This document shows positions 40,318-59,605 of a stretch of 64,000 nucleotides of DNA, in pieces. The stretch is from Candidatus Nanopelagicales bacterium (GTDB taxonomy: Bacteria > Actinomycetota > Actinomycetes > S36-B12). Each line of letters starts with the position of its first letter. The stretch's first letter is position 1. A program made the position numbers and the translations under genes. Under the pieces are notes generated by a model. It was given only the letters and a program-made list of their open reading frames with translations. It searched no databases and was not told the DNA's origin. The stretch is taken from the NCBI GenBank assembly GCA_017857175.1, contig JAFMDS010000003.1:4223-68222 (forward strand), written 5' to 3'.

Positions 40318-40345
40318 CTTCCAATATTGGTGAGTGCGACGAAAG

Positions 40346-41401: not shown

Positions 41402-41514
41402 GATTTCCCTCGCTTTGCTCTTTATTTTTTGTGGTGCTCATGGGCACTGTGTGCGGAGACTACCAAGTGACACGGAGGTAGGTTTCGAATCAGCAGAACT
41501 CACGGTCAAACTAC

Positions 41515-41528
41515 TGGAAACGATACCA
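41515..41528. promoter_or_regulatory. LacI-type operator, copy 1
   Basis: TGGAAACGATACCA between the divergent lacI and enolase genes. Confidence 0.75.
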
Positions 41529-41611
41529 ACAATAGATGCTATGGTGCACAATACAGACATCATTATTGGTCACGCAAATGTCCATCGGACGTACCTCTGA
41601 GGAGTGAGTGA

Positions 41612-42739
41612 ATGAAAATCGCGTCAATTGATCCAATCCCTGTTGCGTATCCCGAGCCTAATGACTTTAACGCGACGCGTTATCTGTGCCTCGTCAAGAT
41701 CACCACGGACGATGGAGTGGTTGGTTGGGGTGAATCCATTACCCAATTCCCAGAGGCAAATGCACCCGTTGCCGCACTGATCGACGGCCTCGCGGAATAT
41801 GTTATTGGTCAGGATCCAGTCCATACCGAAAAGATTTGGCGAGACTTAAAATCCCGCACTTGGTGGTACGGATACCGGGGCGGCCTAGCTTCTTATGCAA
41901 TCTCGGCGATTGATATCGCATTGTGGGACATAAAGGGGAAGGTCCTCGGTCGAAGCGTCCTCGATCTTTTGGGAGGGCCTGTGCATGAACGCTTGCCCGC
42001 TATCGCGTCCTCACATGCTCACTATGAATCAATCCCTCGAATGGCTGAAGAAGCTGTTGAATGGCTATCGACTGGCATGCAGGGCATGAAAGTAGGATTT
42101 GGCAAACGTGGCGACGCACACCTGGGATACGAACACAATCGGGACGTTGAGTACATGCGATCTATGCGGGAAGCAATCGGATCGGATAAAAAAATTATGA
42201 TTGATTGCGGAATCAATGTGAAATGGGATGTGGCCACAGCGGTGAAACGTGTGAGGGCATTCGATGAATACAACTTAGAGTGGATTGAGGAACCACTGGG
42301 TGCATGGGATCCAGAAGGATATGCAACGCTCCGCTCAAAAACGGAGTCATTAATCGCTTATGGAGAACGCGAATGGAACCTGAGTGGATTTGAGAATGTT
42401 CTGGCGACAGGTAGTTGTGATGTTCTCGGCGTCGATCCAGGACGAGCTGAGGGAATTACGGGGTTCAAGAAAGTAACAGATAGATGTGAGTTTTACGGAC
42501 GACAGGCAAATGCGCATGCTTGGTCAAGTGCCATTGTTAGTGCTGCCAGCGTTGCAATAAGTTTTAGTACAACAAGCAGCAAACTATTTGAATTCAAACC
42601 CCTACGAAATCCCATGCAACATGAATTAGTTTCTAATCCCCTCACTCACACAGATGGCTGGCTCTATCCTCCAACGGGTCTCCCAGGCCTTGGTATTGAG
42701 ATCAATGAAGATATTGTTGACCGATACCGAGTGAATTAA
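41612..42739 (+). CDS. Mandelate racemase-subgroup enolase (probable acid-sugar dehydratase)
   Basis: IDIALWDIKGK, metal ligands in MID, WIEEP and GERE, His-Asp dyad (VDP, AHAW), PGLGIE. Confidence 0.92.
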   Translation: MKIASIDPIPVAYPEPNDFNATRYLCLVKITTDDGVVGWGESITQFPEANAPVAALIDGLAEYVIGQDPVHTEKIWRDLKSRTWWYGYRGGLASYAISAIDIALWDIKGKVLGRSVLDLLGGPVHERLPAIASSHAHYESIPRMAEEAVEWLSTGMQGMKVGFGKRGDAHLGYEHNRDVEYMRSMREAIGSDKKIMIDCGINVKWDVATAVKRVRAFDEYNLEWIEEPLGAWDPEGYATLRSKTESLIAYGEREWNLSGFENVLATGSCDVLGVDPGRAEGITGFKKVTDRCEFYGRQANAHAWSSAIVSAASVAISFSTTSSKLFEFKPLRNPMQHELVSNPLTHTDGWLYPPTGLPGLGIEINEDIVDRYRVN

Positions 42740-42748
42740 GTCCAAAGA

Positions 42749-43999
42749 ATGTCGTACAACCCTGGTTCTGTTGATCCACTAAGAATTATGGTCAACTATC
42801 AAGTAAGTGAATTATCAAACGTGGAAATTGAGGCAGTAACTTTTTTACTTGCCGATTTTTTGTCTACGACTAGCGCGTATCTTTATGGCAAGAATTCCTT
42901 GGATTATGCTAATCTACGTGGCTCTGAACTTGCGGCCTATCTAGCCATTGCATCATCAAATGGCGATATGGATGATGTGGACTGGGGAGAGGTACATCAC
43001 CCCGGATCAGTAATTCTGCCTGCCGTCTTGGCGGTCGGAATTGAGAGGCATTCCAGTTCAGATCAGATTCAGCGCGCCATTCAGGCTGGCTATCAAAGTG
43101 CCGCGATTTTCAGTGGAATCATGTCCTCTGAGATTAGGCAAAAATGGCATGCAACATCAATGGCAGGCGCTGTAGGGGCAACACACGCAATAGCGGAACT
43201 AATTGGTCTCACGGCCAATCAGGCATATGCAGCGCTGAGCTTGACATGTGCGAATATTGGCGGGCTTGCGCAGGCAGGTATTGAGAGAAACGGTGCTGCG
43301 CAATTCAATCGTGGGGCAGCTGCGTCTCTGAGTGTCATTGCCGCCAGGGCTGCGTTGATGGATATCCCACATCTTCCGGGTTCATTTACCTCACTCATGC
43401 TTGCGTGGGGTATCGACCCTGACTTAGCAGGCATTGAGGCAGAAGCAAAATCGCAGCAGGCCCTTGGAATTCAGGGCGCATCGCTTCGGTTACTCCCTGT
43501 TTCAGGCTATATGCAAGCCGCAGTGCATGCCGTTGTTTCTGTGCTCATGCGTAGCAGTGGCTTCTCGAGTCTACAGATTTCAGTTGCCCCTTCCACTTAT
43601 CGGCTTACTGTGACGGGTCAGTCCCCATACAACTGGGTCGATGACTACTGGTGGGATTTGCCATTAATGGTGAATCACCTGTTACAAGGGGCCAATGCTT
43701 TTTCGAGGCGGATACCTGTCCTAAACGGAGGAACTCAGTTGAGTGTTGAATTTTTAGAGGATTCCAGTTTGGCTCCCAATGAAGCTCGCCTGCAGTACAG
43801 AAATTCCTCAGGTCAAATTGAATTACACAATTTTGTTGCTCCGGGTGGTTTGCCGCTTGACGAAACTACAAGGAATTTATGGGATCAAAAGTGTTCGCTC
43901 TGGTTAGGTGTTTCTCCAGAAAGAAATCTTGCAGCAGCCCAGGCGATCATGAGTAATGGTCTTCAAGGAAAGAATCTTGCGGAACTATTTAGCATTTAA
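42749..43999 (+). CDS. MmgE/PrpD family protein (divergent)
   Basis: DMDDVDWGEVHHPGSVILPAVLA and WHATSMAG motifs. Confidence 0.75.
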   Translation: MSYNPGSVDPLRIMVNYQVSELSNVEIEAVTFLLADFLSTTSAYLYGKNSLDYANLRGSELAAYLAIASSNGDMDDVDWGEVHHPGSVILPAVLAVGIERHSSSDQIQRAIQAGYQSAAIFSGIMSSEIRQKWHATSMAGAVGATHAIAELIGLTANQAYAALSLTCANIGGLAQAGIERNGAAQFNRGAAASLSVIAARAALMDIPHLPGSFTSLMLAWGIDPDLAGIEAEAKSQQALGIQGASLRLLPVSGYMQAAVHAVVSVLMRSSGFSSLQISVAPSTYRLTVTGQSPYNWVDDYWWDLPLMVNHLLQGANAFSRRIPVLNGGTQLSVEFLEDSSLAPNEARLQYRNSSGQIELHNFVAPGGLPLDETTRNLWDQKCSLWLGVSPERNLAAAQAIMSNGLQGKNLAELFSI

Positions 44000-45069
44000 G
44001 AGTTATTGAGTAAATCCAGCAGAAAATGCTCGACATCTGCGGTACTCGCGGTACCGCGCAGGTCTTTCGTTCGAGTTTCCGGATTAAGCAGAGAGACCTC
44101 TATTGCATTCATCAGTGAGGTTGCAGCCTTGTTCAAATTCAAGTGCTCGAGCATCATGACTCCAGACCAAATTGTGGCTATTGGGTTAGCAATTCCCGAG
44201 CCCGCGATATCCGGTGCCGATCCATGTACAGGTTCAAACATGGAAGGCATGTTTGGATCAGCACTTAAATTAGCGGATGCTGCAATTCCTAAACTTCCAA
44301 CTGTGGCTGAACCCAGATCAGAGAGAATGTCACCATAAAGGTTAGAGGCAACGACAACATCAAATTCCTGTGGCCGCGTTACGAATTCCGCGGCTGCAGC
44401 ATCGATGAGCTTCTTTGATAATTCAATATCGGGGTATTCTTGCATTGTCTCTGCAACAACTTCGTCCCAGAAAGTCATTGTGTGAATAATTCCATTTGAT
44501 TTTGTAACCGAGGTTACTTTGTGCCGACGATTTCTTGCGGCTTCAGCGGCAAATCGGGTTATTCGTTCGATTCCAAAACGGGTAAAAATATCATTCTGCA
44601 CAGCAAACTCACGACATGTTCCTTTAAATGAGCGTCCACCAGACTCGGAGTACTCCCCTTCAGTGTTTTCGCGAACGATCAACATATTGATGTGTTCACC
44701 ATCTGGTAGTTGCACATTTGGACGAACGCCATCAAACTGGCGTACAGGACGAAGGTTGACAAATAGGTCGAATTCCCTGCGGATAGGCATGAGTAATCCC
44801 CAAAGGGTGACATCATCAGGGACTTCAGGATCACCGATCGCACCAAGAAATATGCAATCGAATTCGGAAAGTTGAGCGATACCGTCAGTTGGCATCATCT
44901 GACCGTTCACTTTGAAGTAGTCGGATCCCCAGTCAAGCCAAGTCCAATCAATGGAAAGACCGGCCTGGTGCAAAGCAGCGTCCAACACTTTCACGGCCAC
45001 GGGTATGACTTCCTTGCCAATTCCGTCACCCGGAATGACGGCGACCCTTTTTGCGCTATTCAATGACAT
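43996..45069 (-). CDS. Tartrate dehydrogenase/decarboxylase / D-malate dehydrogenase (IDH/IMDH family)
   Basis: PGDGIGKEV, WGLLMPIRREF..VNLRP, RENTEGEYS, TKSNG and EPVHGSAPDIAG motifs. Confidence 0.88.
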   Translation of the reverse strand: MSLNSAKRVAVIPGDGIGKEVIPVAVKVLDAALHQAGLSIDWTWLDWGSDYFKVNGQMMPTDGIAQLSEFDCIFLGAIGDPEVPDDVTLWGLLMPIRREFDLFVNLRPVRQFDGVRPNVQLPDGEHINMLIVRENTEGEYSESGGRSFKGTCREFAVQNDIFTRFGIERITRFAAEAARNRRHKVTSVTKSNGIIHTMTFWDEVVAETMQEYPDIELSKKLIDAAAAEFVTRPQEFDVVVASNLYGDILSDLGSATVGSLGIAASANLSADPNMPSMFEPVHGSAPDIAGSGIANPIATIWSGVMMLEHLNLNKAATSLMNAIEVSLLNPETRTKDLRGTASTADVEHFLLDLLNNS

Positions 45070-45133
45070 TCCTCAAGGATTAGTCGGTTGGAGCCGAGAG
45101 TGGCCGATATTCGCACAGATTAGTACATGATAC

Positions 45134-45147
45134 CGGTAACGTTTCCA
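45134..45147. promoter_or_regulatory. LacI-type operator, copy 2
   Basis: CGGTAACGTTTCCA upstream of the tartrate dehydrogenase-like gene. Confidence 0.8.
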
Positions 45148-45154
45148 CCACCTA

Positions 45155-45952
45155 TCAATACATCAATTGACCACCAGAGATATTAAGGAGCGCCCCGGTC
45201 ATGTAGCTGGAGGCATCTGAAGCCAGGAATAAAACCGCACCCGCCATTTCCTCGGGTGCACCCAATCTGCCCATGGGCACCATGGAAATGAATGCGGAAA
45301 CCGCGGAAGGACCTTGACCACCATGCAACATTGTCGTGTCCACTCCGCCAGGTGCAACAACATTCACCCGCACTCCGTCAGCGGCAAATGAGCGGGCTAG
45401 CCCTCGTGTCATAGACACGACACCCCCTTTGGCAGCTGCGTAGACGACTGAGCCACCGAATCCGCCCGTCCACCATCCTTGCGAAGAAAAGTTCACAATT
45501 GACCCTTTGGTTCCCTGCCTCACAAAAACATCACGTGCGGTTCGATTGAGAAAAAAAGATGCTTTCAAGTTAACGGAATGTTGAATATCCCAATCCTCTT
45601 CAGTGATTTCATCAATTGTGTCTCGTCGAATTAGCACAGCTGCAAGATGTGCGACCGCGGCCATGGGCGCACCAAGAGTTGCATGGCGAAAAATCTCCTG
45701 ATGTGAACTCAAATCTGCCAAGTCACATACAACTTTTACGTGCCCCGAACCAGGAAGTTGATTAAGTGTGTCATCAAGTGACTCGGCAGTCAGATCAACA
45801 GCGACAACTAATGCGCCCGCCTCCGCAAAGGCCACCGCTGTCGCTCTACCGATTTCACCTCCAGCACCAGTTACGACAACATGATTCCCTGCCAATCCTG
45901 AATCATTGCGCCACGTTGGAATTTCCTCAGAGTTAAGTATGGACTTAGTCAT
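45155..45952 (-). CDS. Short-chain dehydrogenase/reductase
   Basis: TGAGGEIG, YAAAK and VNVVAPG motifs; start MTKS after a GAGGAG RBS. Confidence 0.93.
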   Translation of the reverse strand: MTKSILNSEEIPTWRNDSGLAGNHVVVTGAGGEIGRATAVAFAEAGALVVAVDLTAESLDDTLNQLPGSGHVKVVCDLADLSSHQEIFRHATLGAPMAAVAHLAAVLIRRDTIDEITEEDWDIQHSVNLKASFFLNRTARDVFVRQGTKGSIVNFSSQGWWTGGFGGSVVYAAAKGGVVSMTRGLARSFAADGVRVNVVAPGGVDTTMLHGGQGPSAVSAFISMVPMGRLGAPEEMAGAVLFLASDASSYMTGALLNISGGQLMY

Positions 45953-45986
45953 GCGTGATCTCCTCAGATCGGATTCATTATGCAGT

Positions 45987-47213
45987 CTATTGAGTGAGTA
46001 ACATGAGGCTTTTTGGCTTTCTGACAGCAAGCAAATTTCCATATTGCGTATCCCCGACTAGGCGCAATTCAGGGAATCGATTCGCTATATTTCGCAATGC
46101 AATTTGCGTTTCAAGGCGTGCGAGGGGTGCACCTAGGCAAAAGTGAGGTCCGTGTCCAAATGACACATTTCCAGCATCTTTGCGATGTGAATTGAAGTGA
46201 TTTGGGGTAGTGAATCGCCTAGGGTCTCGATTTGCCGCACCAATAAGGAAAAATACGTAATCCCCCTGAATTATCTCAACTCCATTAACTTCGATGTTCT
46301 TACGAGCTATTCGGGTTTGTCGCTGAATTGAATTATCGAAGCGGAGTACTTCTTCGGTTAGTTTCTCAGTGATAGTCTGATCGTCAACCAATTCCGAATA
46401 GGACTCACGTTGCTGAAGTAGAATGTTAAGCGCATTACCAATCAAGCCTTCGGTGGTTTCAAAGCCAGCAAAAAATAGCTGGATCACGAGTGCGATCAGC
46501 TCTTCGCGTGAGAATGATCCATCTTCGTTTTCGATAACGATTAGATCGCTGAGCAGGTCGTGAGTTGGATGTTGCTCCTTTTCTTTGATCAAGGATTCCA
46601 GGTACTCAGATGCTTCTATTACAGCTTCATTTGCTGATCGCGCAGCTTCAGGTGTCATAACTCCTGCAGATAGTAGATTCACTATTCCTTCAGCCCACCG
46701 GTTTAGGTCACTTAACCTAGAAAATGGGATGCCAAGTAATTTAGAGATCACCATGGCAGGGAGTTTGAACGAAAACATTTGAATAAGATCAAACTGGCGA
46801 TCTGTGGGCCACTGGTCTAGCAAGTCATTGACCAGAGTTTCGATATCGGATTTCATTGAACCAATTCGACGAGCGGTGAATGCCTTACTCACCAGTCGGC
46901 GAAGGCGGGTGTGATCCGGTGCGTCTCGAAAAGACATCATCGCCTCAAGGCAGTCGAATACCGCTCGGTTCTGTACGCGTACATCCGGATCCAGCAGGCT
47001 CGCTGCCTGAGCGATTCGACCTCCTGCACCGAAGTCCATGGACTGAAGACCCTGCTGTACGGAATCAAAGGGAGTTACCAGCCAGCCATTCACCTTCTGA
47101 CTCCACACCACAGGGGATTCGGACAATAATCGTTCGTAGAATGGGTATGGATTATGAAAGAAATCCGGTGTTAAGAAATCATCTTCTGAAATCCTGGAAA
47201 CGATACTAGCCAT
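45987..47213 (-). CDS. Cytochrome P450
   Basis: DAPDHTRLRR, AGFETT I-helix, EEVLR ExxR motif and FGHGPHFCLG heme motif. Confidence 0.97.
   Translation of the reverse strand: MASIVSRISEDDFLTPDFFHNPYPFYERLLSESPVVWSQKVNGWLVTPFDSVQQGLQSMDFGAGGRIAQAASLLDPDVRVQNRAVFDCLEAMMSFRDAPDHTRLRRLVSKAFTARRIGSMKSDIETLVNDLLDQWPTDRQFDLIQMFSFKLPAMVISKLLGIPFSRLSDLNRWAEGIVNLLSAGVMTPEAARSANEAVIEASEYLESLIKEKEQHPTHDLLSDLIVIENEDGSFSREELIALVIQLFFAGFETTEGLIGNALNILLQQRESYSELVDDQTITEKLTEEVLRFDNSIQRQTRIARKNIEVNGVEIIQGDYVFFLIGAANRDPRRFTTPNHFNSHRKDAGNVSFGHGPHFCLGAPLARLETQIALRNIANRFPELRLVGDTQYGNLLAVRKPKSLMLLTQ
47195..47208. promoter_or_regulatory. LacI-type operator, copy 3 (within the first codons of the leaderless P450 gene)
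   Basis: TGGAAACGATACTA; a TAGTGT -10 lies 6 nt upstream of the P450 ATG. Confidence 0.65.
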
Positions 47214-47353
47214 GGCGATACACTAATGGATAAGCAACGTTGGCGAACGATTTTCAGGGTATAGGTGAGGAACTCATGTACCTGAGTATGTGGGATTGCA
47301 CCATGTCACCATTGCCAGTGCAAATCAGTTGCGGTGCGGAGCAATAGACCGCT

Positions 47354-48190
47354 ATGTGGCCGATTTTTTTCGGAGCTCTAGCTGCGGTGAGCACGGCAAT
47401 TGGTCTGATGCTCACCAAAAGCATTTCCCAACGCATGCCCGCCTGGCAAGTAGTAGGGCCGCTGTTTCTTCTCAACACTTTACTCGTTTTACCTGCCATT
47501 CCCATTGGTCCTGCTTGGAAAGTTCCGTCATTTGAGATTTTCCTTCTTCATGCATTCTCCACAATTTTATTAATCGCAGGCGCTGCTTGTGTCTTTCTAC
47601 TGATAACACGGGGTCGTGCTTCGAGCGTCTCTGTTGGACGTGCCGTGTCGCCTGTTGCGGTGCTTATCGCGGGACCAATTCTTTTGGGGAATACGGAATC
47701 ACGAGCGCTCATAATTGGCGCGATTATCGTCATGCTTGGAGCATTGCTCCCTCTACGAAAAGGATTCGAAGGAATCTCCTCGGGCGTGACGCTTGGGATA
47801 TTGATTTTCCTTGGTTTCGCAGAAGGCACTGTCACTGTCTTAACAGCAATGTTGGCATTACAAGGTGTAGGCCTGCCCGAAATCTATATTGTACGTACAC
47901 TGATAGCAGGAATATTTTTCACGCTTTTAGTGCTCCCTCGCGATTTGAAGTTGAAGGACCTTAAACCATTAACCGTCCGAGCAGTTTTTGTTACGGGTGG
48001 GTATTTCTTCACAATTCTTGGAGTTCGTGACGGTGATGTTGTCCCAGTTCAGGCTCTGTGGGCTACCGCACCAATGCTGGTGATTTTATTGGAGTGGATC
48101 AGACTTCGGGAAAGACCGCAGATCGGGGCCATGGTTGGTGCCGTTGTTGTGGCAATCGGCGTTCTAGTGTTACTGAGTGCGGCGAATTAG
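47354..48190 (+). CDS. DMT/EamA family transporter
   Basis: About 10 TM segments in two repeats; P..V.I...ILLG and LRERP..GAMVG patterns. Confidence 0.8.
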   Translation: MWPIFFGALAAVSTAIGLMLTKSISQRMPAWQVVGPLFLLNTLLVLPAIPIGPAWKVPSFEIFLLHAFSTILLIAGAACVFLLITRGRASSVSVGRAVSPVAVLIAGPILLGNTESRALIIGAIIVMLGALLPLRKGFEGISSGVTLGILIFLGFAEGTVTVLTAMLALQGVGLPEIYIVRTLIAGIFFTLLVLPRDLKLKDLKPLTVRAVFVTGGYFFTILGVRDGDVVPVQALWATAPMLVILLEWIRLRERPQIGAMVGAVVVAIGVLVLLSAAN

Positions 48191-48245
48191 TCTTGAGAAG
48201 GATCTGCATGCTCAATGGAAATATTGGTACACAGAGGGAAACCAA

Positions 48246-49574
48246 ATGAAGTACAAGTCAGTGTCTGGGAACAGCATATTGGAGCAAAGTGCTCATGCGG
48301 CGCATAATCTAGCTTCGTTGGGAGTAAATAAAGGCGATCGCATTGGTATTTGTGCAAATAATTCCATGGAATTAGTGACACTTGTTATCGCTGCACTTCG
48401 ATCTGGCATCATCCCCGCTCTCATTAGTTCCCAGGCGACTGAGAGGGAATTAACTGAATTAACTCATGACATTGATGCATGCCGTGTCTTCCGCGACGGT
48501 GATCTTGACAAAATTGTTTACGGAAACAATTTATCAATGGAAATTGAAGTTGCTATCTCCGATTTCCCTCAGTGTCGACCAATGCACTTCACATCGGGTA
48601 CGACCGGCCGGCCGAAAGCTGTATGGAGTGGATGGTTGACGCAATCGGAATCTCTTGAATGGGTGCAGGAAGAAATTGATACATGGGAATTTGTCGAGTC
48701 CGATACCCACTTGGTCAACGGACCGCTAAACCATTCGGCACCTTTACGATTCGCGATCATGACTGTGTTCGCAAAAGGATCGCTTATTATTCCCGAGAAA
48801 TTTGTTGCCAAGCTTGCTTTAGAACTCATGATCAACGAAGGTGTGACAACAACTTTTGCGGCTCCTGCACATCTGCAACGAATCATGGCTGTGGCAAGTC
48901 CGGACCTGCGATTAGAGTCAATGCGGCTAGTTGCGCATGCAGGCTCATTTTGCCCGGATCACGTTCGTATCTGGGCACATGAATTTTTCGGGGTGGAAAC
49001 AGTGGTCGAGTTTTACGGCTCAACAGAAGGCCAATTCACTATCTGTCTAGCGAACGAATGGCGCGACAACCCCGGAAGTGTCGGCCGCGCACGACAGGGG
49101 CGCCAATTGATTACAGATGCTGAGGGGCAGATTTGGTGTCAGGTTCCTGATTTTTCGAGGTTTAGCTATTGGGGTGATGAGACTAAATCCCAAGCAACAT
49201 GGAGGCAGGGTAATTGGTTTTCGGTTGGTGACTTCGGACAAATTGACTCAAGTGGGTACTTGTATCTCGAGGGGCGTAAGGGAGATTTGATTATTTCAGG
49301 AGGTGTGAATGTTTATCCAGCGGAAATCGAACGCGTGATTTCTAGCCTGCAGGGGGTCGCGGAGTCGGTGGCCTTCGGCCTACCCGATTCGGAATGGGGC
49401 CAACGAGTGTGTGTCGCTGTCCTGGGAACCGCAACCGAGTCCGAAATTGATAAACACCTCCGGGAACAACTCTCCGGACCCAAACGACCCAAGAGCGTAT
49501 TTTTGATCGAGAACTTTCCTAGGACGCATTCCGGCAAAGTAGATCGCATACAGGTGGCGAAAATCTTTGGGTGA
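48246..49574 (+). CDS. AMP-binding acyl-CoA synthetase family protein
   Basis: FTSGTTGRPKAV, FYGSTEG, GD.G.ID, IISGGVNVYPAEIE and SGKVDR motifs. Confidence 0.93.
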   Translation: MKYKSVSGNSILEQSAHAAHNLASLGVNKGDRIGICANNSMELVTLVIAALRSGIIPALISSQATERELTELTHDIDACRVFRDGDLDKIVYGNNLSMEIEVAISDFPQCRPMHFTSGTTGRPKAVWSGWLTQSESLEWVQEEIDTWEFVESDTHLVNGPLNHSAPLRFAIMTVFAKGSLIIPEKFVAKLALELMINEGVTTTFAAPAHLQRIMAVASPDLRLESMRLVAHAGSFCPDHVRIWAHEFFGVETVVEFYGSTEGQFTICLANEWRDNPGSVGRARQGRQLITDAEGQIWCQVPDFSRFSYWGDETKSQATWRQGNWFSVGDFGQIDSSGYLYLEGRKGDLIISGGVNVYPAEIERVISSLQGVAESVAFGLPDSEWGQRVCVAVLGTATESEIDKHLREQLSGPKRPKSVFLIENFPRTHSGKVDRIQVAKIFG

Positions 49575-49668
49575 GGCTCACTGAGGGTTGACCGAGTCCA
49601 CTGACTGCTAATTCATTGAGTGGGTTTTGAAAACAGTCTTGACGATCAGGGCACCTATCGGTGTAGAA

Positions 49669-49682
49669 TGGTAACGTTTCCA
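49669..49682. promoter_or_regulatory. LacI-type operator, copy 4
   Basis: TGGTAACGTTTCCA directly after a TAGAAT -10 (TTGACG at 49639-49644). Confidence 0.85.
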
Positions 49683-49700
49683 GAAATCAGAAGGGCTTTC

Positions 49701-50837: not shown

Positions 50838-50884
50838 TTTTCATCTAGCCCCATGTAAACCCAATCTCGAGAGGAATACAGCAA

Positions 50885-51898: not shown

Positions 51899-52911
51899 GC
51901 ACTGTCCTGAAGTCAACGGAAACTGCCATTCAAAGGCGTGAGGCTCTCGCTCGGGGGGCCAAGCAGCAATTTGAGCGAATGATCGAAATCCGAACTATCG
52001 AGGCGGTTGTCAACGATCTTTTTGCTGCTGGAAGTATTCACGGAACGACACATCTTTGTGTTGGCCAGGAAGCACTTGATGTTGGAATCGCGCTAGCACT
52101 GCGTCCCACAGATATGGTTACCGCGACCTATCGCAGTCACGGAATTGCTCTGGCACTAGGAATGACTCCACTCGAAGTAATGGGTGAGATCATGGGTAAA
52201 GATGTTGGTTGTACCGATGGCGTTGGCGGATCAATGCATTTGTGTGACATGTCAGTTGGCTTGTTGCCAACCTTTGCAATTGTTGGTGCGGGATATCCGG
52301 TAGCTGCAGGCGCGGCATTAGCTTTTCAAACACTTGGACAAGACAGCGTGGCTCTTGCAATGGCAGGCGACGGGTCCACAAATATCGGCGCATTCCATGA
52401 GTCACTCAATTTGGCAGCAATATGGAAGTTACCTGTAATTTTTGTGGTGGATAACAATGTCTATGGCGAATACTCGCGCATTGACACGACAACCCCAATA
52501 GAAGACTTGTATCTCCGCGCGGCGTCCTTTGACATTCCTGGCATAGTCGTTGATGGAATGGATGTCACAGCTGTTGAGGCAGTTGTTAGACAGGCTGCAG
52601 ATCGCGCTCGCCGGTGTGAAGGGCCCACTCTGATAGAAGCCAAGACCTATCGATTTTCGGGGCATTCACGTGCGGATCAAGCCCCGTATCGCCCAGTTGG
52701 CGAACTCGAATCTTGGCAGCAGCGGGACCCAATCAAACTTATGTCCGAAAAGTTGGTGAATGAAGGTGTCCTGACTTCTGATCAGGTCCTGCAAATCACG
52801 GAGTCGACCAGAGAATCAATATCGGAATTAGTCGCAGGGCTTGAGGCGCTGCCAGAGCCAGAATACTCGGCAATGTTTAACAATGTTTGGACAACAGAGA
52901 AGGTGACGTAG
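51895..52911 (+). CDS. 2-oxoacid/acetoin dehydrogenase E1 alpha subunit (TPP-dependent)
   Basis: HLCVGQEA, GGSMH, TPP motif GDG...NN and TYRFSGHS; ATGA overlap with E1 beta. Confidence 0.95.
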   Translation: MSTVLKSTETAIQRREALARGAKQQFERMIEIRTIEAVVNDLFAAGSIHGTTHLCVGQEALDVGIALALRPTDMVTATYRSHGIALALGMTPLEVMGEIMGKDVGCTDGVGGSMHLCDMSVGLLPTFAIVGAGYPVAAGAALAFQTLGQDSVALAMAGDGSTNIGAFHESLNLAAIWKLPVIFVVDNNVYGEYSRIDTTTPIEDLYLRAASFDIPGIVVDGMDVTAVEAVVRQAADRARRCEGPTLIEAKTYRFSGHSRADQAPYRPVGELESWQQRDPIKLMSEKLVNEGVLTSDQVLQITESTRESISELVAGLEALPEPEYSAMFNNVWTTEKVT

Positions 52912-52915
52912 GGCG

Positions 52916-53152
52916 ATGAAGACTTCAGTTAAAATGCCACGCGTCGCCGACACGGTTGACGAAGTCGTCATTGCCGAATGGCTTGTTGAAGTAGGAGCCA
53001 GAGTTGAAATTGGCGACGTACTCATGAATGTAGAGACCGACAAAGCGGTCGTAGAAGTCCCCAGTCCAGTTTCCGGGGTGCTCCTCGCGCAACTCGTAGC
53101 TGTTGACGACGAAGTGGTCACCGGAACCCCGATCGCCCAGTTAGAAACATGA
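52916..53152 (+). CDS. Stand-alone lipoyl-domain carrier protein
   Basis: 78 aa with VETDKAVVEVPSP lipoyl-lysine motif; no E2 catalytic domain follows. Confidence 0.92.
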   Translation: MKTSVKMPRVADTVDEVVIAEWLVEVGARVEIGDVLMNVETDKAVVEVPSPVSGVLLAQLVAVDDEVVTGTPIAQLET

Positions 53153-53177
53153 TTCCTTAACGAACTAGGAGGTTGCC

Positions 53178-54077
53178 ATGAATGTCAAGCCGTCAATCAT
53201 TGACACACATGTTCATTTTTTCGACATGAGGCAAAAGGAGTGGGATCTTGAGTGGTCGTGGCTAGCCCCTCAATCGGATCATCCGATTCTGGGAAACATT
53301 GACGCTATTAAGTCTCAGAGTTTCGACCTCACTGCCCTCGAAGGTGAGAGCAGGTTTGCAGGTGTCACAGGCTTTGTTCACGTACAAGCGGCAATTGGGT
53401 CTAGGGATCCGGTCACAGAAACCAAGTGGGTCGATCACATGGCCATGGCTTCATCGATTCCGGTTCAAATAGTGGGTCACGTTGATCTTGCAACTTCGCA
53501 AGGACCGCGTCAGATCGAACAGCATCTCGAGGCATCGGCAAGATTTGCGGGTGTTCGGGATTTCTCCCTGGAACCTGCCTTAGCCTCGGGTGACTTTTCT
53601 GCGTATGGACCATCATTCAAAGTTCTAACGGATGAAAACTTGGTCCTGGACTTGGATTGCGAGTTCCAAAATATGCCAGCAGCAAAATTATTGGCTGGCC
53701 GGAATCCTGACATGAATATTGTTTTAGAACATATCGGATTTCCACGCCGGCGCGATGACCAGTATTTCTCTGATTGGTCATTGGGAATCAAAACACTTGC
53801 AGAAGTACCTAATGTGATGTGCAAAATATCGGGGCTCGGGATGACCGATCCGCGGTTCACGGCTAAGTCATTACAGCCTTGGTTGGAAGTCTGCCTAGAT
53901 GCTTTTGGTCCAGATCGGCTTGTCATCGGTTCCAACTGGCCAATTGACCGCTTGTACAGTTCCTATGACGCGATTATCGGGCTTTATCGTGAATTCTTCA
54001 GCCAACTCTCGATCGATGACCAAGAAAAAATCTTCAATTTAAATACAAAGAAGGTATACCGCTTCAATAACGAGTGA
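53178..54077 (+). CDS. Amidohydrolase-2 sugar lactonase (COG3618, L-fuconolactonase-like)
   Basis: IDTHVH, VHVQAA, VLEHIG.P, KISG and FGPDRL..GSNWP motifs. Confidence 0.85.
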   Translation: MNVKPSIIDTHVHFFDMRQKEWDLEWSWLAPQSDHPILGNIDAIKSQSFDLTALEGESRFAGVTGFVHVQAAIGSRDPVTETKWVDHMAMASSIPVQIVGHVDLATSQGPRQIEQHLEASARFAGVRDFSLEPALASGDFSAYGPSFKVLTDENLVLDLDCEFQNMPAAKLLAGRNPDMNIVLEHIGFPRRRDDQYFSDWSLGIKTLAEVPNVMCKISGLGMTDPRFTAKSLQPWLEVCLDAFGPDRLVIGSNWPIDRLYSSYDAIIGLYREFFSQLSIDDQEKIFNLNTKKVYRFNNE

Positions 54078-54095
54078 ATGTATCTCTAATGCAGG

Positions 54096-55148
54096 CTAGC
54101 GTTCGACCCATGCGCCCTGTCGGGCACTACGATAAATCAAATCGAGAGCTTCAACTGTTCGTGCACCTAACTCAAGAGGCGCATCGTTGACGACTGGTTT
54201 TCCGCGAGTGAGGTCAAGGATCACCTCAACAGGACCAAAGCAGTCGTAATGACCTGCATTGGGTGGAAGTTCAACGTCAACGGTCGAACCGTCTGGTCGA
54301 TACAACCAAACCTGATCACGCTCAACATCGATTCGGAATTGGCCCTCAGACCCGTAAGCGGAAATACACAATTGGTGCCGGTTATTGGCTGCACCCATAT
54401 GGTTGGATGCACCGAATGCGGTACCAATAGAACCATCTTGATACTTGAGAGTGATGGCGTCGTGTAATTCAACTGGCGCGTTCATGGAGTTAAGCATGAG
54501 GGCAAATGCACCTGTTACTCGCTGGTCCAGTAGCCAGAGGCTCATGCCAAAAGCATGTGAAAGTTGAGCTTGGGCGTAACCACCGCCAGATAGTAGAGGG
54601 TTAGTCCACGTAGCTTGTTCTGGAGTTGTGTCTGCGGAGGCTTCGGGGTAGGCGCCAGTATTTGAAAGCAATTCTCGCGTTTGTGACGCCATAACAATAG
54701 ACACTGCTTCAATTTGGCCAATCCCGATATCAGTCATGAGTGACTTTGCCTTCTTCAGCATGGGGCTGAAATTCCAACCGAATGCACAGGTGACACTTCG
54801 GCCGTTCTTCTCCGCAAGTTCAACAAGTTCCCACGCATGATCGGGATTGAGAGTGACAGGCTTTTCAATCAGGACGTTAGCCCCCGCTTCGAGTGCGGCC
54901 TTTGCGTGTTCGTAATGCAACCCAGATGGACTCGCCACGAGAACTACATCGACACTCTCAGAGAGTACATCGACGTAATTTTCACTAGCAACCTTGAATC
55001 CAAAATTCGCCCGGATCCGCTCGAGAGCTTCCTTGCCATGGCGGGAAACACCTACAAACTCGACGTCTTCGTGCTTCGCAAAAGTGGGTAGATGTGATGA
55101 CACCGCCCAAGAACCTCCACCTATCACACCGAATCTAATTGGACTCAT
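54096..55148 (-). CDS. Gfo/Idh/MocA family oxidoreductase
   Basis: GVIGGGSWA, ASPSGLH, VLIEKP and SGGG....QLSH motifs. Confidence 0.92.
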   Translation of the reverse strand: MSPIRFGVIGGGSWAVSSHLPTFAKHEDVEFVGVSRHGKEALERIRANFGFKVASENYVDVLSESVDVVLVASPSGLHYEHAKAALEAGANVLIEKPVTLNPDHAWELVELAEKNGRSVTCAFGWNFSPMLKKAKSLMTDIGIGQIEAVSIVMASQTRELLSNTGAYPEASADTTPEQATWTNPLLSGGGYAQAQLSHAFGMSLWLLDQRVTGAFALMLNSMNAPVELHDAITLKYQDGSIGTAFGASNHMGAANNRHQLCISAYGSEGQFRIDVERDQVWLYRPDGSTVDVELPPNAGHYDCFGPVEVILDLTRGKPVVNDAPLELGARTVEALDLIYRSARQGAWVER

Positions 55149-55198
55149 GGAATATCTCCTTAATCAGTACGCAGTTTTACAATGGATTTCAGCAGATT

Positions 55199-56209
55199 TC
55201 AAGATGGGCTTAGTCGTTCTCTGAGGCGGTCGAAGGAAACAGCAATAATCAACAAGATTCCTGTCGCTATGGATTGCCAGAAGGATTGAACATTAAGCAA
55301 GGTAAGACCTGTGCTCAAAACTTGAATGATCATCAAGCCCAGGAAAGTTCCGATGATTGTGCCCCTACCACCATTGAGACTGGCTCCGCCAAGAACTATC
55401 GCAGTGACCACTAGGAGTTCATAACCGCGGGCATTATTTGGAGAGGCTGCTCCAAGTTGCGACACCAAGATAAGACCCGCTACCGAAGCGGCTAGTCCAG
55501 AAAGGATGAACGCAACAAAGATCACGCGACGACTGGGGATTCCGACGAGTCGAGCGGCCACTGGATTTGCGCCAATGGCGTACACCTGCCGACCGTAAAC
55601 CGTGTATTTCAAGACGATGAATCCTGCGATGAGTGTTATCCCAAAGATAATAACTGGCATCGGGATGTTGAGAAACGGTCTTGCGGTTCCGATGTAGCCG
55701 AAGTCGCGAATCAATACTGTTTGGCCATCGCCAATCAGTTGTCCAATTCCGAAGAAGGTGGCCAGGCCACCAAGAGTGACAATCAGACTGTTAACACCGA
55801 CAACGGTCACAAAGAATCCATTGATGACGCCGACGAGGAGACCTACAGCTAACCCAATGGCAACTGCCGACCCTAATGCCATACTTTGAGCCAGGGTGGC
55901 GGTTACCATGCCGCACATCGCGGCTGCAGATGCAACCGACAGGTCAACTTGACCAGCTACGAGCAAGATCGTTCCAGGCACAGCCATGATTCCAATGACA
56001 GCGATGCTTGTGAGCATGTTCAGCATGTTGTTAGTCGTGAAAAATACGGGGCTAGTCAAAGTGAACAAAAGGATCAGCGCGCCAAGCACCATAACTAGTG
56101 CGAGGGTTTCGGGGAGTTGACGCCTTGGTGGTCTCGATAATCCAAGAGTTGACGCTACAGAAACTTCGTCCCTGACTGCGGGGACTGTTCCCTCATCCAT
56201 TGTGTTCAT
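55199..56209 (-). CDS. Sugar ABC transporter permease (RbsC-like)
   Basis: GQVDLSV, YGRQVYAIGANPVAARLVGI and AIVLGGASLNGGRG motifs. Confidence 0.95.
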   Translation of the reverse strand: MNTMDEGTVPAVRDEVSVASTLGLSRPPRRQLPETLALVMVLGALILLFTLTSPVFFTTNNMLNMLTSIAVIGIMAVPGTILLVAGQVDLSVASAAAMCGMVTATLAQSMALGSAVAIGLAVGLLVGVINGFFVTVVGVNSLIVTLGGLATFFGIGQLIGDGQTVLIRDFGYIGTARPFLNIPMPVIIFGITLIAGFIVLKYTVYGRQVYAIGANPVAARLVGIPSRRVIFVAFILSGLAASVAGLILVSQLGAASPNNARGYELLVVTAIVLGGASLNGGRGTIIGTFLGLMIIQVLSTGLTLLNVQSFWQSIATGILLIIAVSFDRLRERLSPS

Positions 56210-56270
56210 GTGGCGCCTCTCCTTGTTGCAGTAAACGTGTGAATTGAATTCGTTAAATTAATTTCTGTGC

Positions 56271-57785
56271 TCATCCGCCAGACGCGTCTGTTAAAGCGAC
56301 CACTGAAACTTCGTGGTAGTCCAGATTGCTCGTGATTTTTCCTGCGGACATCACAACGGCTCGATCGGCAACCTGGACTACTTCTTCATAATCGGAGGTC
56401 GAGATCAATATCCCGACACCTTCGTCTGCAAGTTGTCGGATAACTGCATAAATTTCCTGTCGCGCACCTACGTCTACGCCCCGTGTTGGCTCCAGAAGAA
56501 CCAGAACCTTTGAGCCGGCATTAAGCCAGCGAGCGAGAAGCACCTTCTGTTGGTTTCCACCAGAGAGGAATGAAATTGCTTTATCTGCCCCACTTTCGGA
56601 AACCCTGATTCGAAGAGCCGTTCGCCATTTTTCAAATGAAGTGCGCTCTTTCTTGCCGTTCGCCCAGAAGGTGCCACCGAGAACACCAGACCAAAACGGA
56701 GCGACAAGGTTCATGCCACTAGAGAGTCCAAGAAAGGCCCCTTCGCGCTTGCGATCAGCGGGTAAAAGCCCAACGCCCAAGCCGATCGCGTTTCGTGGAG
56801 AACGTGCAGGAGGACCCCCATTGATGAAAAGCTCGCCTGCGGTTATTTTCTGAACTCCGAACGCAGCTTCAGCAACCTCAGAGATCCCGGAGCCAACTTT
56901 CCCGTAGAGTGCAACGACTTCGCCGGGCAAGATCACAAGGTTGGCATCCTCGAATGAGCCAGCAGATGCGGCGTCGCGGAGTTCGATCAGTGGTTCTGCG
57001 TTAGCCGGAATCAGGTTCATCTTTGGACGCCCGAATTCATCTATTTTGGAGCCAACCATTGCCTCAATAAGTATAGATCGGTCAATGTTTCGAGCATCAC
57101 TAGAGGACAACGCGAGATTACCGTCACGTAGTACAACTACATCGTCGGCAACTCGGCGTAATTCGTCGAGTCGATGCGTGATGTAGATCATTGCGGTACC
57201 TTTGTCGCGAAGGCGATCGATGAATTCGAATAAAGTGTCGACTTCATCGCCTGAAAGAGCCGCCGTGGGTTCATCAAGAACCAAAATTGCGGCTTTATCT
57301 GATAAAGCTCGCGCAATTTCAATGACCTGTCGCTCACCTACTCTCAGGGACGACATGAGAGCATTCGGATCGATATCGACTTCAAGATCATTGAGGATTC
57401 GTTGGGCTTCACGGCGCATTTGGCGCCATTGGACGAAACCTTTCTTGGATATTAATCGACCTAAGAAGATATTTTCGGCAACACTTAATGTGCCCGCATC
57501 GTTAATCTCTTGGTAAATCATTCTGATTCCCAAGTTTCCTGCGGTTATAGGCGTCAATTTTGAAAAAGTTTGATTAGCCACGGAGATTTCCCCGGAATCG
57601 GGTTCGTAATCCCCACTAATGATTTTTACAAGAGTTGATTTGCCTGCGCCATTTTCGCCAAGTAGTGCGAGAACGCGTCCCGAGGTGGCGTCGAGGTCAA
57701 TACCGTGCAAGACCTCGACACCACCAAAGGATTTCTTAATCCCTCGGACAGATAGTGCAATTTCCTTCCGAGAGTTTTCTAGCAT
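56271..57785 (-). CDS. Sugar ABC transporter ATP-binding protein (RbsA-like, double NBD)
   Basis: GENGAGKST, LDEPT, LSGGNQQK and EPTRGVDVGA motifs. Confidence 0.96.
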   Translation of the reverse strand: MLENSRKEIALSVRGIKKSFGGVEVLHGIDLDATSGRVLALLGENGAGKSTLVKIISGDYEPDSGEISVANQTFSKLTPITAGNLGIRMIYQEINDAGTLSVAENIFLGRLISKKGFVQWRQMRREAQRILNDLEVDIDPNALMSSLRVGERQVIEIARALSDKAAILVLDEPTAALSGDEVDTLFEFIDRLRDKGTAMIYITHRLDELRRVADDVVVLRDGNLALSSSDARNIDRSILIEAMVGSKIDEFGRPKMNLIPANAEPLIELRDAASAGSFEDANLVILPGEVVALYGKVGSGISEVAEAAFGVQKITAGELFINGGPPARSPRNAIGLGVGLLPADRKREGAFLGLSSGMNLVAPFWSGVLGGTFWANGKKERTSFEKWRTALRIRVSESGADKAISFLSGGNQQKVLLARWLNAGSKVLVLLEPTRGVDVGARQEIYAVIRQLADEGVGILISTSDYEEVVQVADRAVVMSAGKITSNLDYHEVSVVALTDASGG

Positions 57786-57791
57786 GCTTAA

Positions 57792-58910
57792 TCAGCATCC
57801 GCTCACATCGTAGAAGTCACCGATATTATTTTCGGTGACGTAGAGGTGGTCCACGAGCAGTTCCTTGGGAATGGTTACGCCATTGACTGCATCAATGAGG
57901 TAGGGAATTCCGATTTCGCCGTAACGCTCTGGGAAGAACGCTGCGCTACCTGCCCATTGACCTCCTGAAGCAATTTCGCAATGTGAGATCTTGTCGACTC
58001 CCATACCGGAAACGGCGATCTGGTCTTCGCGGCCAGCGGTACGTGCAGCAGCGAGTGCAGCACTGATGCCGTCATCGTTGATGGCAACAACTGCGATGCG
58101 ACTTGCATCTGGGAGTGCTGTCAGAGTGTCTGTGACAGCCGTGAGGGCAATGTCTTGACGCCCGGCATCCAGTTCGCGGACCTGGGTAGTCGCTTCATCG
58201 ATGGGACCACACACAGACTCAAAGCCCTCGCGCTGTCCATCCATGCGGGCGTCGTTAACGGAACCAACCCCGAAGTCTTCAAGGGAAATCCAAGCATCAA
58301 TCTTGCAATCCCAATTTTCCTTGACCCAGTTGCCGAGGCCTTCGCCACCGATAAACCCTGCACGAGCGTTATTGGCGCCCATGAAAGCTGTCTGGCAATC
58401 ACCTTGAGCAATGTCGATTGCAATTACTGGTACACCCTGTGGGCCTGCATCGCAGATCTCCTGGCCAGCGTCAGCAACAGGCTGGAAGTTCATGTATCCC
58501 TGAACACCTTGAGCCTCGAAGTTCTTAACACACGCCAAAGCTGTTGCTGCATCGAGCTTGCTATCGCAGAAGATCAGTGTCGCACCCGCGATTTCAGCCT
58601 GCTCTTTGAATCCGTCAGATACTGACTTACTGAATGGAATTGAATCGTCAAGGGCGATGATTCCTAGCGTTACGCCCTCACCACTGCCTGGCTCTGCTCC
58701 ACGAAATTCAACGAATTCACCCGAGGCAACTTCTGCGGTTTCTTCGCTGGTTTCCTCGACGACGACTTCTTCGGAAGGCGATTCTTCCACCGTTGCAGTC
58801 GCTGCTGCATCAGTTGATTCTGCGTCATCACTGCTGCTGCAAGCTGAAAGAGTCAGCGCGGCAGCGGCTACAAGAGAAGCGATTTGAGCCCCTCGTCTAA
58901 ATCGAATCAT
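57792..58910 (-). CDS. Sugar ABC transporter substrate-binding lipoprotein
   Basis: Lipobox LSAC, acidic linker and a Peripla_BP_4-like domain; start MIRF after GGAGG. Confidence 0.92.
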   Translation of the reverse strand: MIRFRRGAQIASLVAAAALTLSACSSSDDAESTDAAATATVEESPSEEVVVEETSEETAEVASGEFVEFRGAEPGSGEGVTLGIIALDDSIPFSKSVSDGFKEQAEIAGATLIFCDSKLDAATALACVKNFEAQGVQGYMNFQPVADAGQEICDAGPQGVPVIAIDIAQGDCQTAFMGANNARAGFIGGEGLGNWVKENWDCKIDAWISLEDFGVGSVNDARMDGQREGFESVCGPIDEATTQVRELDAGRQDIALTAVTDTLTALPDASRIAVVAINDDGISAALAAARTAGREDQIAVSGMGVDKISHCEIASGGQWAGSAAFFPERYGEIGIPYLIDAVNGVTIPKELLVDHLYVTENNIGDFYDVSGC

Positions 58911-58934
58911 ATGATTTCCTCCGAGTTCATGTAT

Positions 58935-58948
58935 TGGAAAGGTTTCCA
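58935..58948. promoter_or_regulatory. LacI-type operator, copy 5
   Basis: TGGAAAGGTTTCCA, 25 nt upstream of the SBP start; TTGACA on the minus strand at 58974-58979. Confidence 0.75.
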
Positions 58949-59014
58949 GAATCATTGCCCAAGGTTTCGGATGTGTCAAGGATCTTTGTAAAATTGTTAT
59001 TCAGCCAAACAGGT

Positions 59015-59362
59015 TCAACTGGCTTCAGCTGCGTTAGCGGCTATTTTTTCATTCATGTGCCACACCTGTTCGGCCATAAAGAGATTGCCAGATTCATCTG
59101 TGAGGGACTTGATGACATCGGTAAACCAGATCGCCCACTCAGTATTGGCAGTCGAATTTGCCATTGAGCCGAGGCATGACTCAATCGTTGGGTGACATTC
59201 CGCGTACCCGAACACCTGATTTCCACGACGAAATAGACTGTAGTTTCTCCACCCACCCGCCCATAGATCTCCCAGTAGTTGAGGCCACACTTCTTCGTGT
59301 CGTCGTTCGTACTCCTCTATTTTGTCTTCATAAATCTCCATAATGAATAGCAAACGCTCCAT
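59015..59362 (-). CDS. rhaM: L-rhamnose mutarotase family protein
   Basis: EYERRHEEVWP..L...G.RNYSLF motif; start MERL after GGAGG. Confidence 0.85.
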   Translation of the reverse strand: MERLLFIMEIYEDKIEEYERRHEEVWPQLLGDLWAGGWRNYSLFRRGNQVFGYAECHPTIESCLGSMANSTANTEWAIWFTDVIKSLTDESGNLFMAEQVWHMNEKIAANAAEAS

Positions 59363-59377
59363 GCAATTCCTCCAAAT

Positions 59378-59391
59378 CGGTAACGTTTCCG
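59378..59391. promoter_or_regulatory. LacI-type operator, copy 6
   Basis: CGGTAACGTTTCCG upstream of the mutarotase gene. Confidence 0.8.
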
Positions 59392-59476
59392 GCGATTTAC
59401 CCATACTGGACTTGAGTTGAGGTCGCGTCAACCGGAATCAATGGAATATAGGGGCCAAATGCCCGTGAAATACATT

Positions 59477-59605
59477 TTATCCACAGGCTGTGGATAACTT
59501 TTAAGCGTGTCTCCCCACCGAATGACACAAAAAAAAGAATCTATGCACAATTTGAACACAGGTTCATCACACAAGAGTCACAGATATTGCACAGATCTGC
59601 ACACA
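59477..59605. promoter_or_regulatory. DnaA-box cluster upstream of dnaB
   Basis: Inverted perfect pair TTATCCACA-ggc-TGTGGATAA (59477-59497) plus degenerate CTATGCACA, TTGAACACA, TATTGCACA and CTGCACACA. Confidence 0.8.

What the first reader, a model, noticed from the sequence alone, without database searches (positions are those of the whole stretch)
41515..59391. Six copies of one 14-bp LacI-type palindrome define the island regulon
Seen: TGGAAACGATACCA (41515), CGGTAACGTTTCCA (45134), TGGAAACGATACTA (47195), TGGTAACGTTTCCA (49669), TGGAAAGGTTTCCA (58935) and CGGTAACGTTTCCG (59378). Each sits at the 5' end of a different transcription unit, and five have the central CG typical of LacI operators. 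This is sequence-level evidence that the oppositely oriented operons, including the P450 and tartrate dehydrogenase-like genes, respond to one inducer.
Basis: partly seen in the sequence, partly recalled or inferred. Interest (0 to 1): 0.7.

Follow-up and report, generated by a model that had tools for sequence, protein, structure and literature searches.

The report
Local LacI operators, unknown sugar pathway
Six copies of one short palindrome sit at gene starts in a 19-kb accessory island of an aquatic actinobacterium and are very likely binding sites for the island's own LacI repressor, an ordinary kind of control, but over a predicted sugar-breakdown pathway whose substrate is unknown.

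Summary
Confirmed. All six 14-mers are at the stated coordinates. A motif derived from 46 other genomes, without this window, is TGGAAACGTTTCCA and ranks them 1-6 in the 2.0-Mb genome. They lie in a 19.3-kb island, from lacI to a mutarotase gene, that 11 of 12 relatives' loci lack. In 52 related loci, all 31 carrying a LacI with the SSVSR helix have a site; 72 control loci have none. Corrections: three sites mark predicted internal promoters, and 47195 lies in codons 2-7 of a probably leaderless P450. Best reading: an ordinary local LacI repressor regulon; binding and inducer are untested. The regulated genes (sugar ABC transporter, mutarotase, dehydrogenases, lactonase-like hydrolase, two enolase-family enzymes, E1 with a free lipoyl carrier, P450) predict an oxidative route for an unidentified monosaccharide; only the tartrate-dehydrogenase-like gene passed a curated cut-off. 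P450 and tdh operators recur in a rearranged cluster. The scan noted similar clusters on other DNA. New member of a known kind; interest 0.3.

The parts
40346..41401 (-). LacI-family regulator, recognition helix GVAVSSVSR, hinge YSPDPVAQSL; predicted cognate repressor
   Evidence: PF00356 + periplasmic-binding domains; helix invariant in 23 aligned orthologues
41515..41528 (.). operator 1, shared by divergent lacI (113 bp upstream) and enolase 1 (83 bp upstream); covers the predicted -35 region of the enolase 1 promoter (TG-n-TATGGT at 41540-41545)
41612..42739 (+). enolase 1, mandelate racemase/muconate lactonizing family, single Lys (GMK) motif
42749..43999 (+). MmgE/PrpD-family protein
43996..45069 (-). 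tartrate dehydrogenase-like beta-decarboxylating dehydrogenase
   Evidence: TIGR02089 477 bits vs cut-off 470.4; PRK08194 444.5 vs 501
45134..45147 (.). operator 2, 64 bp before tdh, 1 nt upstream of a candidate -10 (TATCAT); predicted internal promoter
45155..45952 (-). short-chain dehydrogenase
45987..47213 (-). cytochrome P450, intact AGFETT / EEVLR / FGHGPHFCLG; probably leaderless (TAGTGT + 6 nt + ATG, in-frame stop just upstream)
47195..47208 (.). operator 3, inside P450 codons 2-7 (+6..+19 of the predicted leaderless transcript); also 145 bp upstream of the divergent EamA gene
47354..48190 (+). EamA/DMT transporter
48246..49574 (+). acyl-CoA ligase (AMP-binding)
49669..49682 (.). operator 4, overlaps last base of candidate -10 TAGAAT (TTGACG 19 bp upstream), 18 bp before enolase 2
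49701..50837 (+). enolase 2, close to uncharacterised structures 3MSY/3NO1/4H83 (E 1e-153); Gln at the third metal-ligand position
50885..52911 (+). TPP-dependent E1 beta then E1 alpha subunits
52916..53152 (+). free-standing 78-aa lipoyl carrier; no E2 catalytic or E3 gene in the island
53178..54077 (+). amidohydrolase 2, predicted sugar lactonase
54096..55148 (-). Gfo/Idh/MocA oxidoreductase, predicted sugar dehydrogenase
55199..58910 (-). monosaccharide ABC transporter: permease 55199-56209, ATPase 56271-57785, binding protein 57792-58910
58935..58948 (.). operator 5 (central GG/CC), 2 nt downstream of TTGACA-17-AATGAT, 24 bp before the binding-protein gene
59015..59362 (-). RhaM-family mutarotase
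   Evidence: PF05336
59378..59391 (.). operator 6, 11 nt downstream of TTGACG-17-CAGTAT, 15 bp before the mutarotase start
40305..59597 (.). accessory island, 49.5% GC, between the low-molecular-weight phosphatase gene and dnaB

Best explanation
The six palindromes (consensus TGGWAACGTTTCCA) are confined to a 19.3-kb accessory island and are most likely operators of the island's own LacI protein, which would repress the island's promoters, including its own, until a sugar-derived inducer releases it. Shown: sequences, positions, confinement, island limits, and co-occurrence with the SSVSR-helix LacI subfamily in other genomes. Inferred: dimer binding, with Arg of the helix on the outer G and the hinge helices at the central CG; repression, because every site overlaps or closely follows a candidate -35, -10 or start site; a leaderless P450 transcript, which explains the one site inside a gene. 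Inferred with lower confidence: the regulon imports a monosaccharide, oxidises it without phosphorylation (mutarotase, dehydrogenase, lactonase, enolase-family dehydratases, SDR) and decarboxylates a 2-oxo acid on E1 with the free lipoyl carrier. P450, PrpD, tdh and the ligase would be accessory steps. The sugar is likely deoxy- or otherwise modified.
For: Top 6 of 2.0 Mb with own and independent matrices. 64 sites of 16 bits or more in 52 orthologous loci vs 1.8 in shuffles. 31 of 31 loci with the SSVSR LacI have a site, 5 of 21 without it, 0 of 72 distant-P450 control loci (559 kb). Exact pattern: 4 hits in this genome, all in the island; 14 scattered hits in 21 same-genus genomes that lack the LacI, reversed control 12; clustered 5 of 5, 4 of 4 and 4 of 5 within about 40 kb in G026, G150, G106. 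LacI proteins with a TATVSR helix have TGTAAACGATTACG sites instead. The island spans exactly lacI to mutarotase. L092 holds the same genes rearranged, with 4 operators at the new unit starts, one touching the P450 ATG and divergent to tdh. Site form and autoregulation match LacI norms (PMC4052901).
Against: No binding or expression-response data. Promoter elements are consensus matches only; the scan found 13 promoter-like sites against 21 in shuffles and listed only the one before the binding-protein gene. Loci are kin and partly overlapping, so counts overstate independence. The published recognition code covers TVSR helices and this helix is SVSR; my reading of its V15S16 cell (GT) comes from machine-extracted table layout. 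No operator was found at the P450 start in L025, L028, L029, L031 or L035. All enzymes but tdh are far from characterised proteins, so the substrate is a guess.
Confidence: 0.9

Rival explanations
1. The sites belong to a global or distant regulator (a CcpA/cre-like catabolite box, or another of the genome's LacI proteins), not the local LacI.
For: The consensus fits the generic LacI/cre pattern TGnAAnCGnTTnCA (recalled). The genome has six LacI genes.
Against: No comparable sites outside the island. The other five helices are KSLVSL, TKTVSR, VASVSN, TATVSR and PATVSR; the published code links TK, TA and PA to other half-sites (layout-read). The motif tracks the SSVSR subfamily across genomes.
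Confidence: 0.03
2. The LacI regulon is real for the core (enolases, E1, transporter), but P450, tdh, EamA and ligase are passengers and the site at 47195 is a chance feature of coding sequence.
For: P450 occurs in only 7 of 52 enolase-2 loci and tdh in 4. G026 has the core cluster without this P450. Five loci show no operator at the P450 start. Under 1% of LacI sites lie in coding regions.
Against: 47195 ranks 4th in the genome on the independent matrix. L092 has an operator at the P450 start and facing tdh, and tdh operators occur in L072 and L037. Six of 8 near-full-length P450 orthologues at 41% identity or more from metagenomes sit among island genes. The peptide encoded over the site is not conserved among distant orthologues.
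Confidence: 0.08
3. The LacI binds these sites but acts at some of them as an activator, or the inducer is a pathway intermediate (lactone or acid) rather than the imported sugar.
For: At 41515, 47195 (EamA side) and 45134 a TAnnnT lies 24-25 nt from the site start, so the site sits at or just upstream of -35. Dual-mode LacI proteins exist (PckR).
Against: At the other positions the site overlaps -10 or the start site, which fits repression.
Confidence: 0.15
4. The island is an L-rhamnose or L-fucose regulon of known non-phosphorylative type.
For: RhaM-family mutarotase. Nearest lactonase structure is 4DLF/4DLM (recalled as L-fucono-1,5-lactonase). Such routes use enolase-family dehydratases and end in pyruvate plus lactate or lactaldehyde (PMC10444878).
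Against: Enolase 1 scores 121 bits against the L-rhamnonate dehydratase cut-off of 393; neither enolase passes any listed model. The lactonase match is only E 5e-16. No aldolase or hydrolase terminal step, and no isomerase or kinase, in the island.
Confidence: 0.12

Closest known systems
Local LacI-family sugar-catabolic regulons (Ravcheev et al. 2014, PMC4052901; passages and section 9 read)
   Same: Even palindrome with central CG, sites near gene starts, autoregulation, 20 or fewer genes, sugar uptake and catabolism.
   Different: This motif string was not found in print (six spellings). One site is inside a reading frame (under 1% of known sites). Effector and pathway are unassigned.
LacI recognition code (Camas et al. 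2010, PMC2978694; passages, Tables S1, S2 and Fig. S7 read as extracted text)
   Same: Arg at AA-20 with G at NT-6; Ser at AA-16 with G-rich NT-5/NT-4 half-sites.
   Different: The code was built on TVSR helices; this subfamily has an invariant SSVSR with V/I/L/M/P at AA-15 and mixes GA and GT half-sites (7 GA, 4 GT, 1 AT of 12 half-sites).
Actinomycetales RhaR (LacI-type) rhamnose regulon (PMC3870299, passages read)
   Same: LacI regulator, RhaM mutarotase, ABC uptake in actinobacteria.
   Different: No rhamnose isomerase, kinase or aldolase here. I could not see that paper's motif logos, which are figures.
Non-phosphorylative L-fucose/L-rhamnose pathways (PMC10444878, passages read)
   Same: Dehydrogenase, lactonase, enolase-family dehydratase and SDR logic.
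   Different: Two divergent enolases below all curated cut-offs; E1 with a free lipoyl carrier where a terminal aldolase or hydrolase would be; accessory P450, PrpD and tdh.
CYP236A sugar O-demethylases (PMC6292453, abstract start and passages read)
   Same: A P450 embedded in a carbohydrate-use locus.
   Different: 6G5O/6G5Q are not among the 21 best sequence hits or the listed top-50 fold hits, which are P450BioI and CYP107-type at 33% identity or less, one at 34%. No ferredoxin or reductase in the island.

Membership tests
LacI-family regulon | Regulator with LacI HTH and sugar-binding domain next to its targets | tested here: met
   PF00356 57.6 bits, PF00532/PF13377; gene lies inside the island
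LacI-family regulon | Hinge motif YxPxxxAxxL (recalled) and Arg at helix position 20 paired with G at NT-6 | tested here: met
   Y50, P52, A56, R25 invariant and L59 nearly invariant in 23 orthologues; G at NT-6 in 11 of 12 half-sites
LacI-family regulon | Even palindrome with central CG | tested here: met
   5 of 6 sites; de novo consensus TGGAAACGTTTCCA
LacI-family regulon | Sites near gene starts, usually 30-140 bp upstream, with autoregulation | tested here: met
   83, 64 and 113 bp (lacI itself); 15-24 bp for three sites; one site in codons 2-7
LacI-family regulon | Motif co-conserved with the orthologous regulator | tested here: met
   31 of 31 loci with the SSVSR LacI; 0 of 72 control loci
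LacI-family regulon | Direct binding and release by an effector | not testable with these tools
   needs EMSA and a ligand screen
Global regulator (CcpA/cre type) | Many sites across the genome | tested here: not met
L-rhamnose regulon / pathway | RhaA/RhaB/RhaD, or L-rhamnonate dehydratase plus aldolase or hydrolase | tested here: not met
CYP236A sugar demethylase | Close sequence or structural kinship to 6G5O/6G5Q | tested here: not met
   absent from the best hits; no pairwise identity was computed
Tartrate dehydrogenase (TIGR02089) | Score above the curated cut-off | tested here: inconclusive
   477 vs 470.4 passes; PRK08194 444.5 vs 501 fails
Self-mobile element (integrative island) | Integrase or transposase, tRNA target, flanking direct repeats | tested here: not met
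   no such gene among the island proteins; longest junction repeat 8 bp; a tRNA scan was not run

The most novel reading that the evidence does not exclude
The operators delimit an undescribed catabolic route, spread through aquatic and soil actinobacteria, for a modified (deoxy or O-methyl) monosaccharide. A P450 unrelated to CYP236A removes the modification, and an E1 working on a free lipoyl carrier replaces the usual aldolase step. The binding protein has non-polar residues where ribose-binding protein has several polar contacts (contact list recalled), and a second, distant P450-mutarotase-lactonase-dehydrogenase cluster exists (L117).
Probability: 0.2. Interest if true: 0.65.

Novelty: new member of a known kind. 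Interest (0 to 1): 0.3.

Why it matters
As regulation it is textbook: a local LacI with several operators. Its use is practical. The motif gives a sequence tag that fixes membership of an uncharacterised gene set whose order is shuffled between genomes, and it shows that a P450, a PrpD protein and a tartrate-dehydrogenase-like enzyme are wired to a sugar transporter. The LacI and the binding protein offer two direct ligand screens for the unknown substrate of a pathway found in lake, marsh and soil actinobacteria, including streamlined Planktophila and Nanopelagicus genomes. It also adds an SSVSR-helix/TGGWAAC pair to the LacI recognition code.

Tried and rejected
I first took tdh to be on the + strand, which would have put 45134 between converging genes; it is on the - strand. 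A seemingly missing core gene (xylose-isomerase-like) was an artefact of shadow ORFs in my first clustering (redone in 33). The phylum-wide LacI profile search gave 3 of 400 genomes, all with other helices and other motifs, so not orthologues; only 5 candidates were scored per genome. Folds of the binding protein (pLDDT 93) and P450 (pLDDT 79) gave only distant matches and no substrate. The promoter scan showed no enrichment. RNA-library contigs of three studies cover most of the island, but contigs cannot show strand, start or level and may hold DNA, so they are not used as evidence of expression. Paper searches that found nothing relevant in their listings: motif spellings, PDB codes 3MSY/3NO1/4H83 (29), Nanopelagicales or acI with P450 (28, 59), enzyme-set terms, leaderless operator precedent (89). 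Most subscription papers and the RegPrecise database were not searchable, so prior description there is not excluded. No complex prediction was run.
Full report
Observation. The six strings are present exactly and once each at the stated positions, and five have a central CG. In the window's genome (2,002,012 bases, 83 contigs) they are the six best hits of a matrix built on them, and leave-one-out scoring lets at most two other positions reach a held-out site. To avoid circularity I fetched 52 loci by protein similarity to enolase 2 and ran a palindromic Gibbs search on the 46 that had an upstream region and passed 55% identity. The consensus was TGGAAACGTTTCCA; I kept the 35 sites above 12 bits. 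That matrix ranks the window's six sites 1 to 6 in the genome, at 16.4-22.2 bits against 15.9 for the next.

Anatomy. The genes are lacI(-); enolase 1 and prpD(+); P450, sdr and tdh(-); EamA and ligase(+); enolase 2, E1 beta, E1 alpha, a free lipoyl carrier and an amidohydrolase(+); and mutarotase, binding protein, ATPase, permease and Gfo/Idh/MocA(-). Site 41515 serves the lacI/enolase 1 divergon. Sites 45134, 49669 and 58935 lie in gaps within same-strand runs, 64, 18 and 24 bp before tdh, enolase 2 and the binding protein. Site 59378 is 15 bp before the mutarotase. Site 47195 covers codons 2-7 of the P450; an in-frame stop just upstream and TAGTGT six bases before the ATG suggest a leaderless transcript, which would put the operator at +6 to +19. 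Each site overlaps or closely follows a candidate promoter element, the clearest being TTGACA-17-AATGAT ending 2 nt before site 58935. These elements are consensus matches, and the region has fewer of them than its shuffles (13 vs 21).

The island is the regulon. In 11 of 12 loci from same-genus genomes the phosphatase gene directly precedes dnaB; the twelfth shows no phosphatase hit before its contig ends. A contig from a public run, in the 99%-or-more identity class, skips from 40299 to 59598, so the island varies among near-identical strains. It is 49.5% GC against 53.2 +/- 1.1% for 198 genome windows, with no junction repeat over 8 bp and no integrase among its proteins. Its LacI, enolase 2 and P450 were not found in the 21 same-genus genomes searched, 70-100% complete. 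Gain by recombination in the flanking genes is my inference.

Which protein binds. The genome has six LacI genes; only the island's has the helix VSSVSR. SSVSR is invariant in 23 aligned orthologues at 33-56% identity. With the window-trained matrix the 52 loci hold 64 sites of 16 bits or more, against 1.8 in shuffles. All 31 loci that contain such a LacI have a site, 5 of 21 without one in the fetched stretch do, and 72 loci of distant P450s (559 kb) have none. An exact degenerate pattern hits 4 times in this genome, all in the island; 14 times, each on a different contig, in 21 congeners, with 12 for the reversed control; and in tight clusters in G026, G150 and G106, which carry the LacI. 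Three LacI loci with a TATVSR helix instead carry TGTAAACGATTACG, as the code of Camas et al. would suggest (PMC2978694). That code was built on TVSR helices and I read its table from extracted layout, so it supports only weakly. These genomes are kin and the sets overlap in part, so the counts are not independent trials.

Do P450 and tdh belong? P450 is accessory: 7 of 52 loci, and absent from G026's larger cluster. But L092 has the same gene set in another order, with operators before enolase 1, enolase 2 and the binding protein, and one that touches the P450 ATG and faces tdh. tdh has an operator in L072 and L037, and in L045 and L047 the P450 follows an sdr that has one. In L025, L028, L029, L031 and L035 no site was found at the P450 start. 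Six of eight near-full-length metagenomic P450 orthologues at 41% identity or more sit among island genes. The 120 best protein hits, where named, are called only 'cytochrome P450', hypothetical or unannotated.

What is regulated. The binding protein folds like ribose-binding proteins at 22% identity or less. It keeps the equivalents of D89, R141 and N190 but has I, I, G and F opposite N13, R90, D215 and Q235 (the contact list is recalled and the alignment is distant), which hints at a less hydroxylated ligand. Mutarotase, Gfo/Idh/MocA, amidohydrolase, enolases and SDR match the logic of non-phosphorylative sugar oxidation (PMC10444878). Neither enolase passes a curated model, enolase 2 matches only uncharacterised structures, and no terminal aldolase or hydrolase is present. 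E1 alpha/beta with a lone lipoyl domain may decarboxylate a 2-oxo acid, borrowing one of the E2-type catalytic domains found elsewhere in the genome (3 matches). The P450 is intact, resembles BioI/CYP107 enzymes distantly, and has no redox partner in the island; a small ferredoxin gene exists elsewhere. These pathway steps are inference.

Comparison and verdict. Site shape, position, autoregulation and size fit ordinary local LacI regulons (PMC4052901). I did not find the motif or the gene set in print, within a library that lacks most subscription papers and RegPrecise. Two earlier notes of this scan describe similar operator-delimited enolase/E1 clusters in other genomes; they agree with my reading but are not evidence. 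The regulation is a new member of a known kind. The open question worth following is the substrate, which the LacI and binding protein make directly screenable. Interest 0.3.

Noticed in passing
window 59477-59497: Inverted pair TTATCCACA-GGC-TGTGGATAA upstream of dnaB; both arms match the DnaA-box consensus (recalled). Similar boxes lie before dnaB in relatives. The scan listed it as terminator-like.
   Followed up: no
G015, G003, G016, G020, G013 and others, dnaB loci (L089-L091): dnaB matches are split or partial within open frames of 850 aa or more, probably an intein; the window's dnaB is uninterrupted.
   Followed up: no
window 52916-53152: Free-standing lipoyl carrier after E1 beta/alpha with no E2 or E3; 16 loci share it, while 5 other loci have a full E2.
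   Followed up: partly
window 49701-50837 and 41612-42739: Enolase 2 has Gln (AGQSE) where the third metal ligand is usually Glu; enolase 1 has GMK in place of KxK. Both are conserved in the aligned orthologues.
   Followed up: no
window 57792-58910: The binding protein has six invariant cysteines plus a usual C-terminal one, suggesting disulfides.
   Followed up: no
window about 40305-40346: The island replaced the 5' end and upstream region of the phosphatase gene, which now starts about 30 bp after the lacI stop on the same strand and may be read from the lacI promoter.
   Followed up: partly
L011-L014 and L008-L009 (G026): A 40-kb version of the cluster with two LacI, two enolase-2 and three Gfo paralogues and 11 motif sites, plus a second cluster with two more LacI paralogues.
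   Followed up: partly
L117:1938-8400: Two distant P450s (36-38%) beside Gfo, mutarotase and amidohydrolase homologues, with no motif site: a second P450-sugar cluster.
   Followed up: no
L028, L029, L031, L101 P450 starts: TAnnnT lies a few bases before the likely start codon here too, so a leaderless P450 divergent from EamA seems conserved, without the operator (read by eye).
   Followed up: partly
L072/L093 tdh: The tdh orthologue is in three frames (frameshifts or assembly errors) yet keeps its operator.
   Followed up: no
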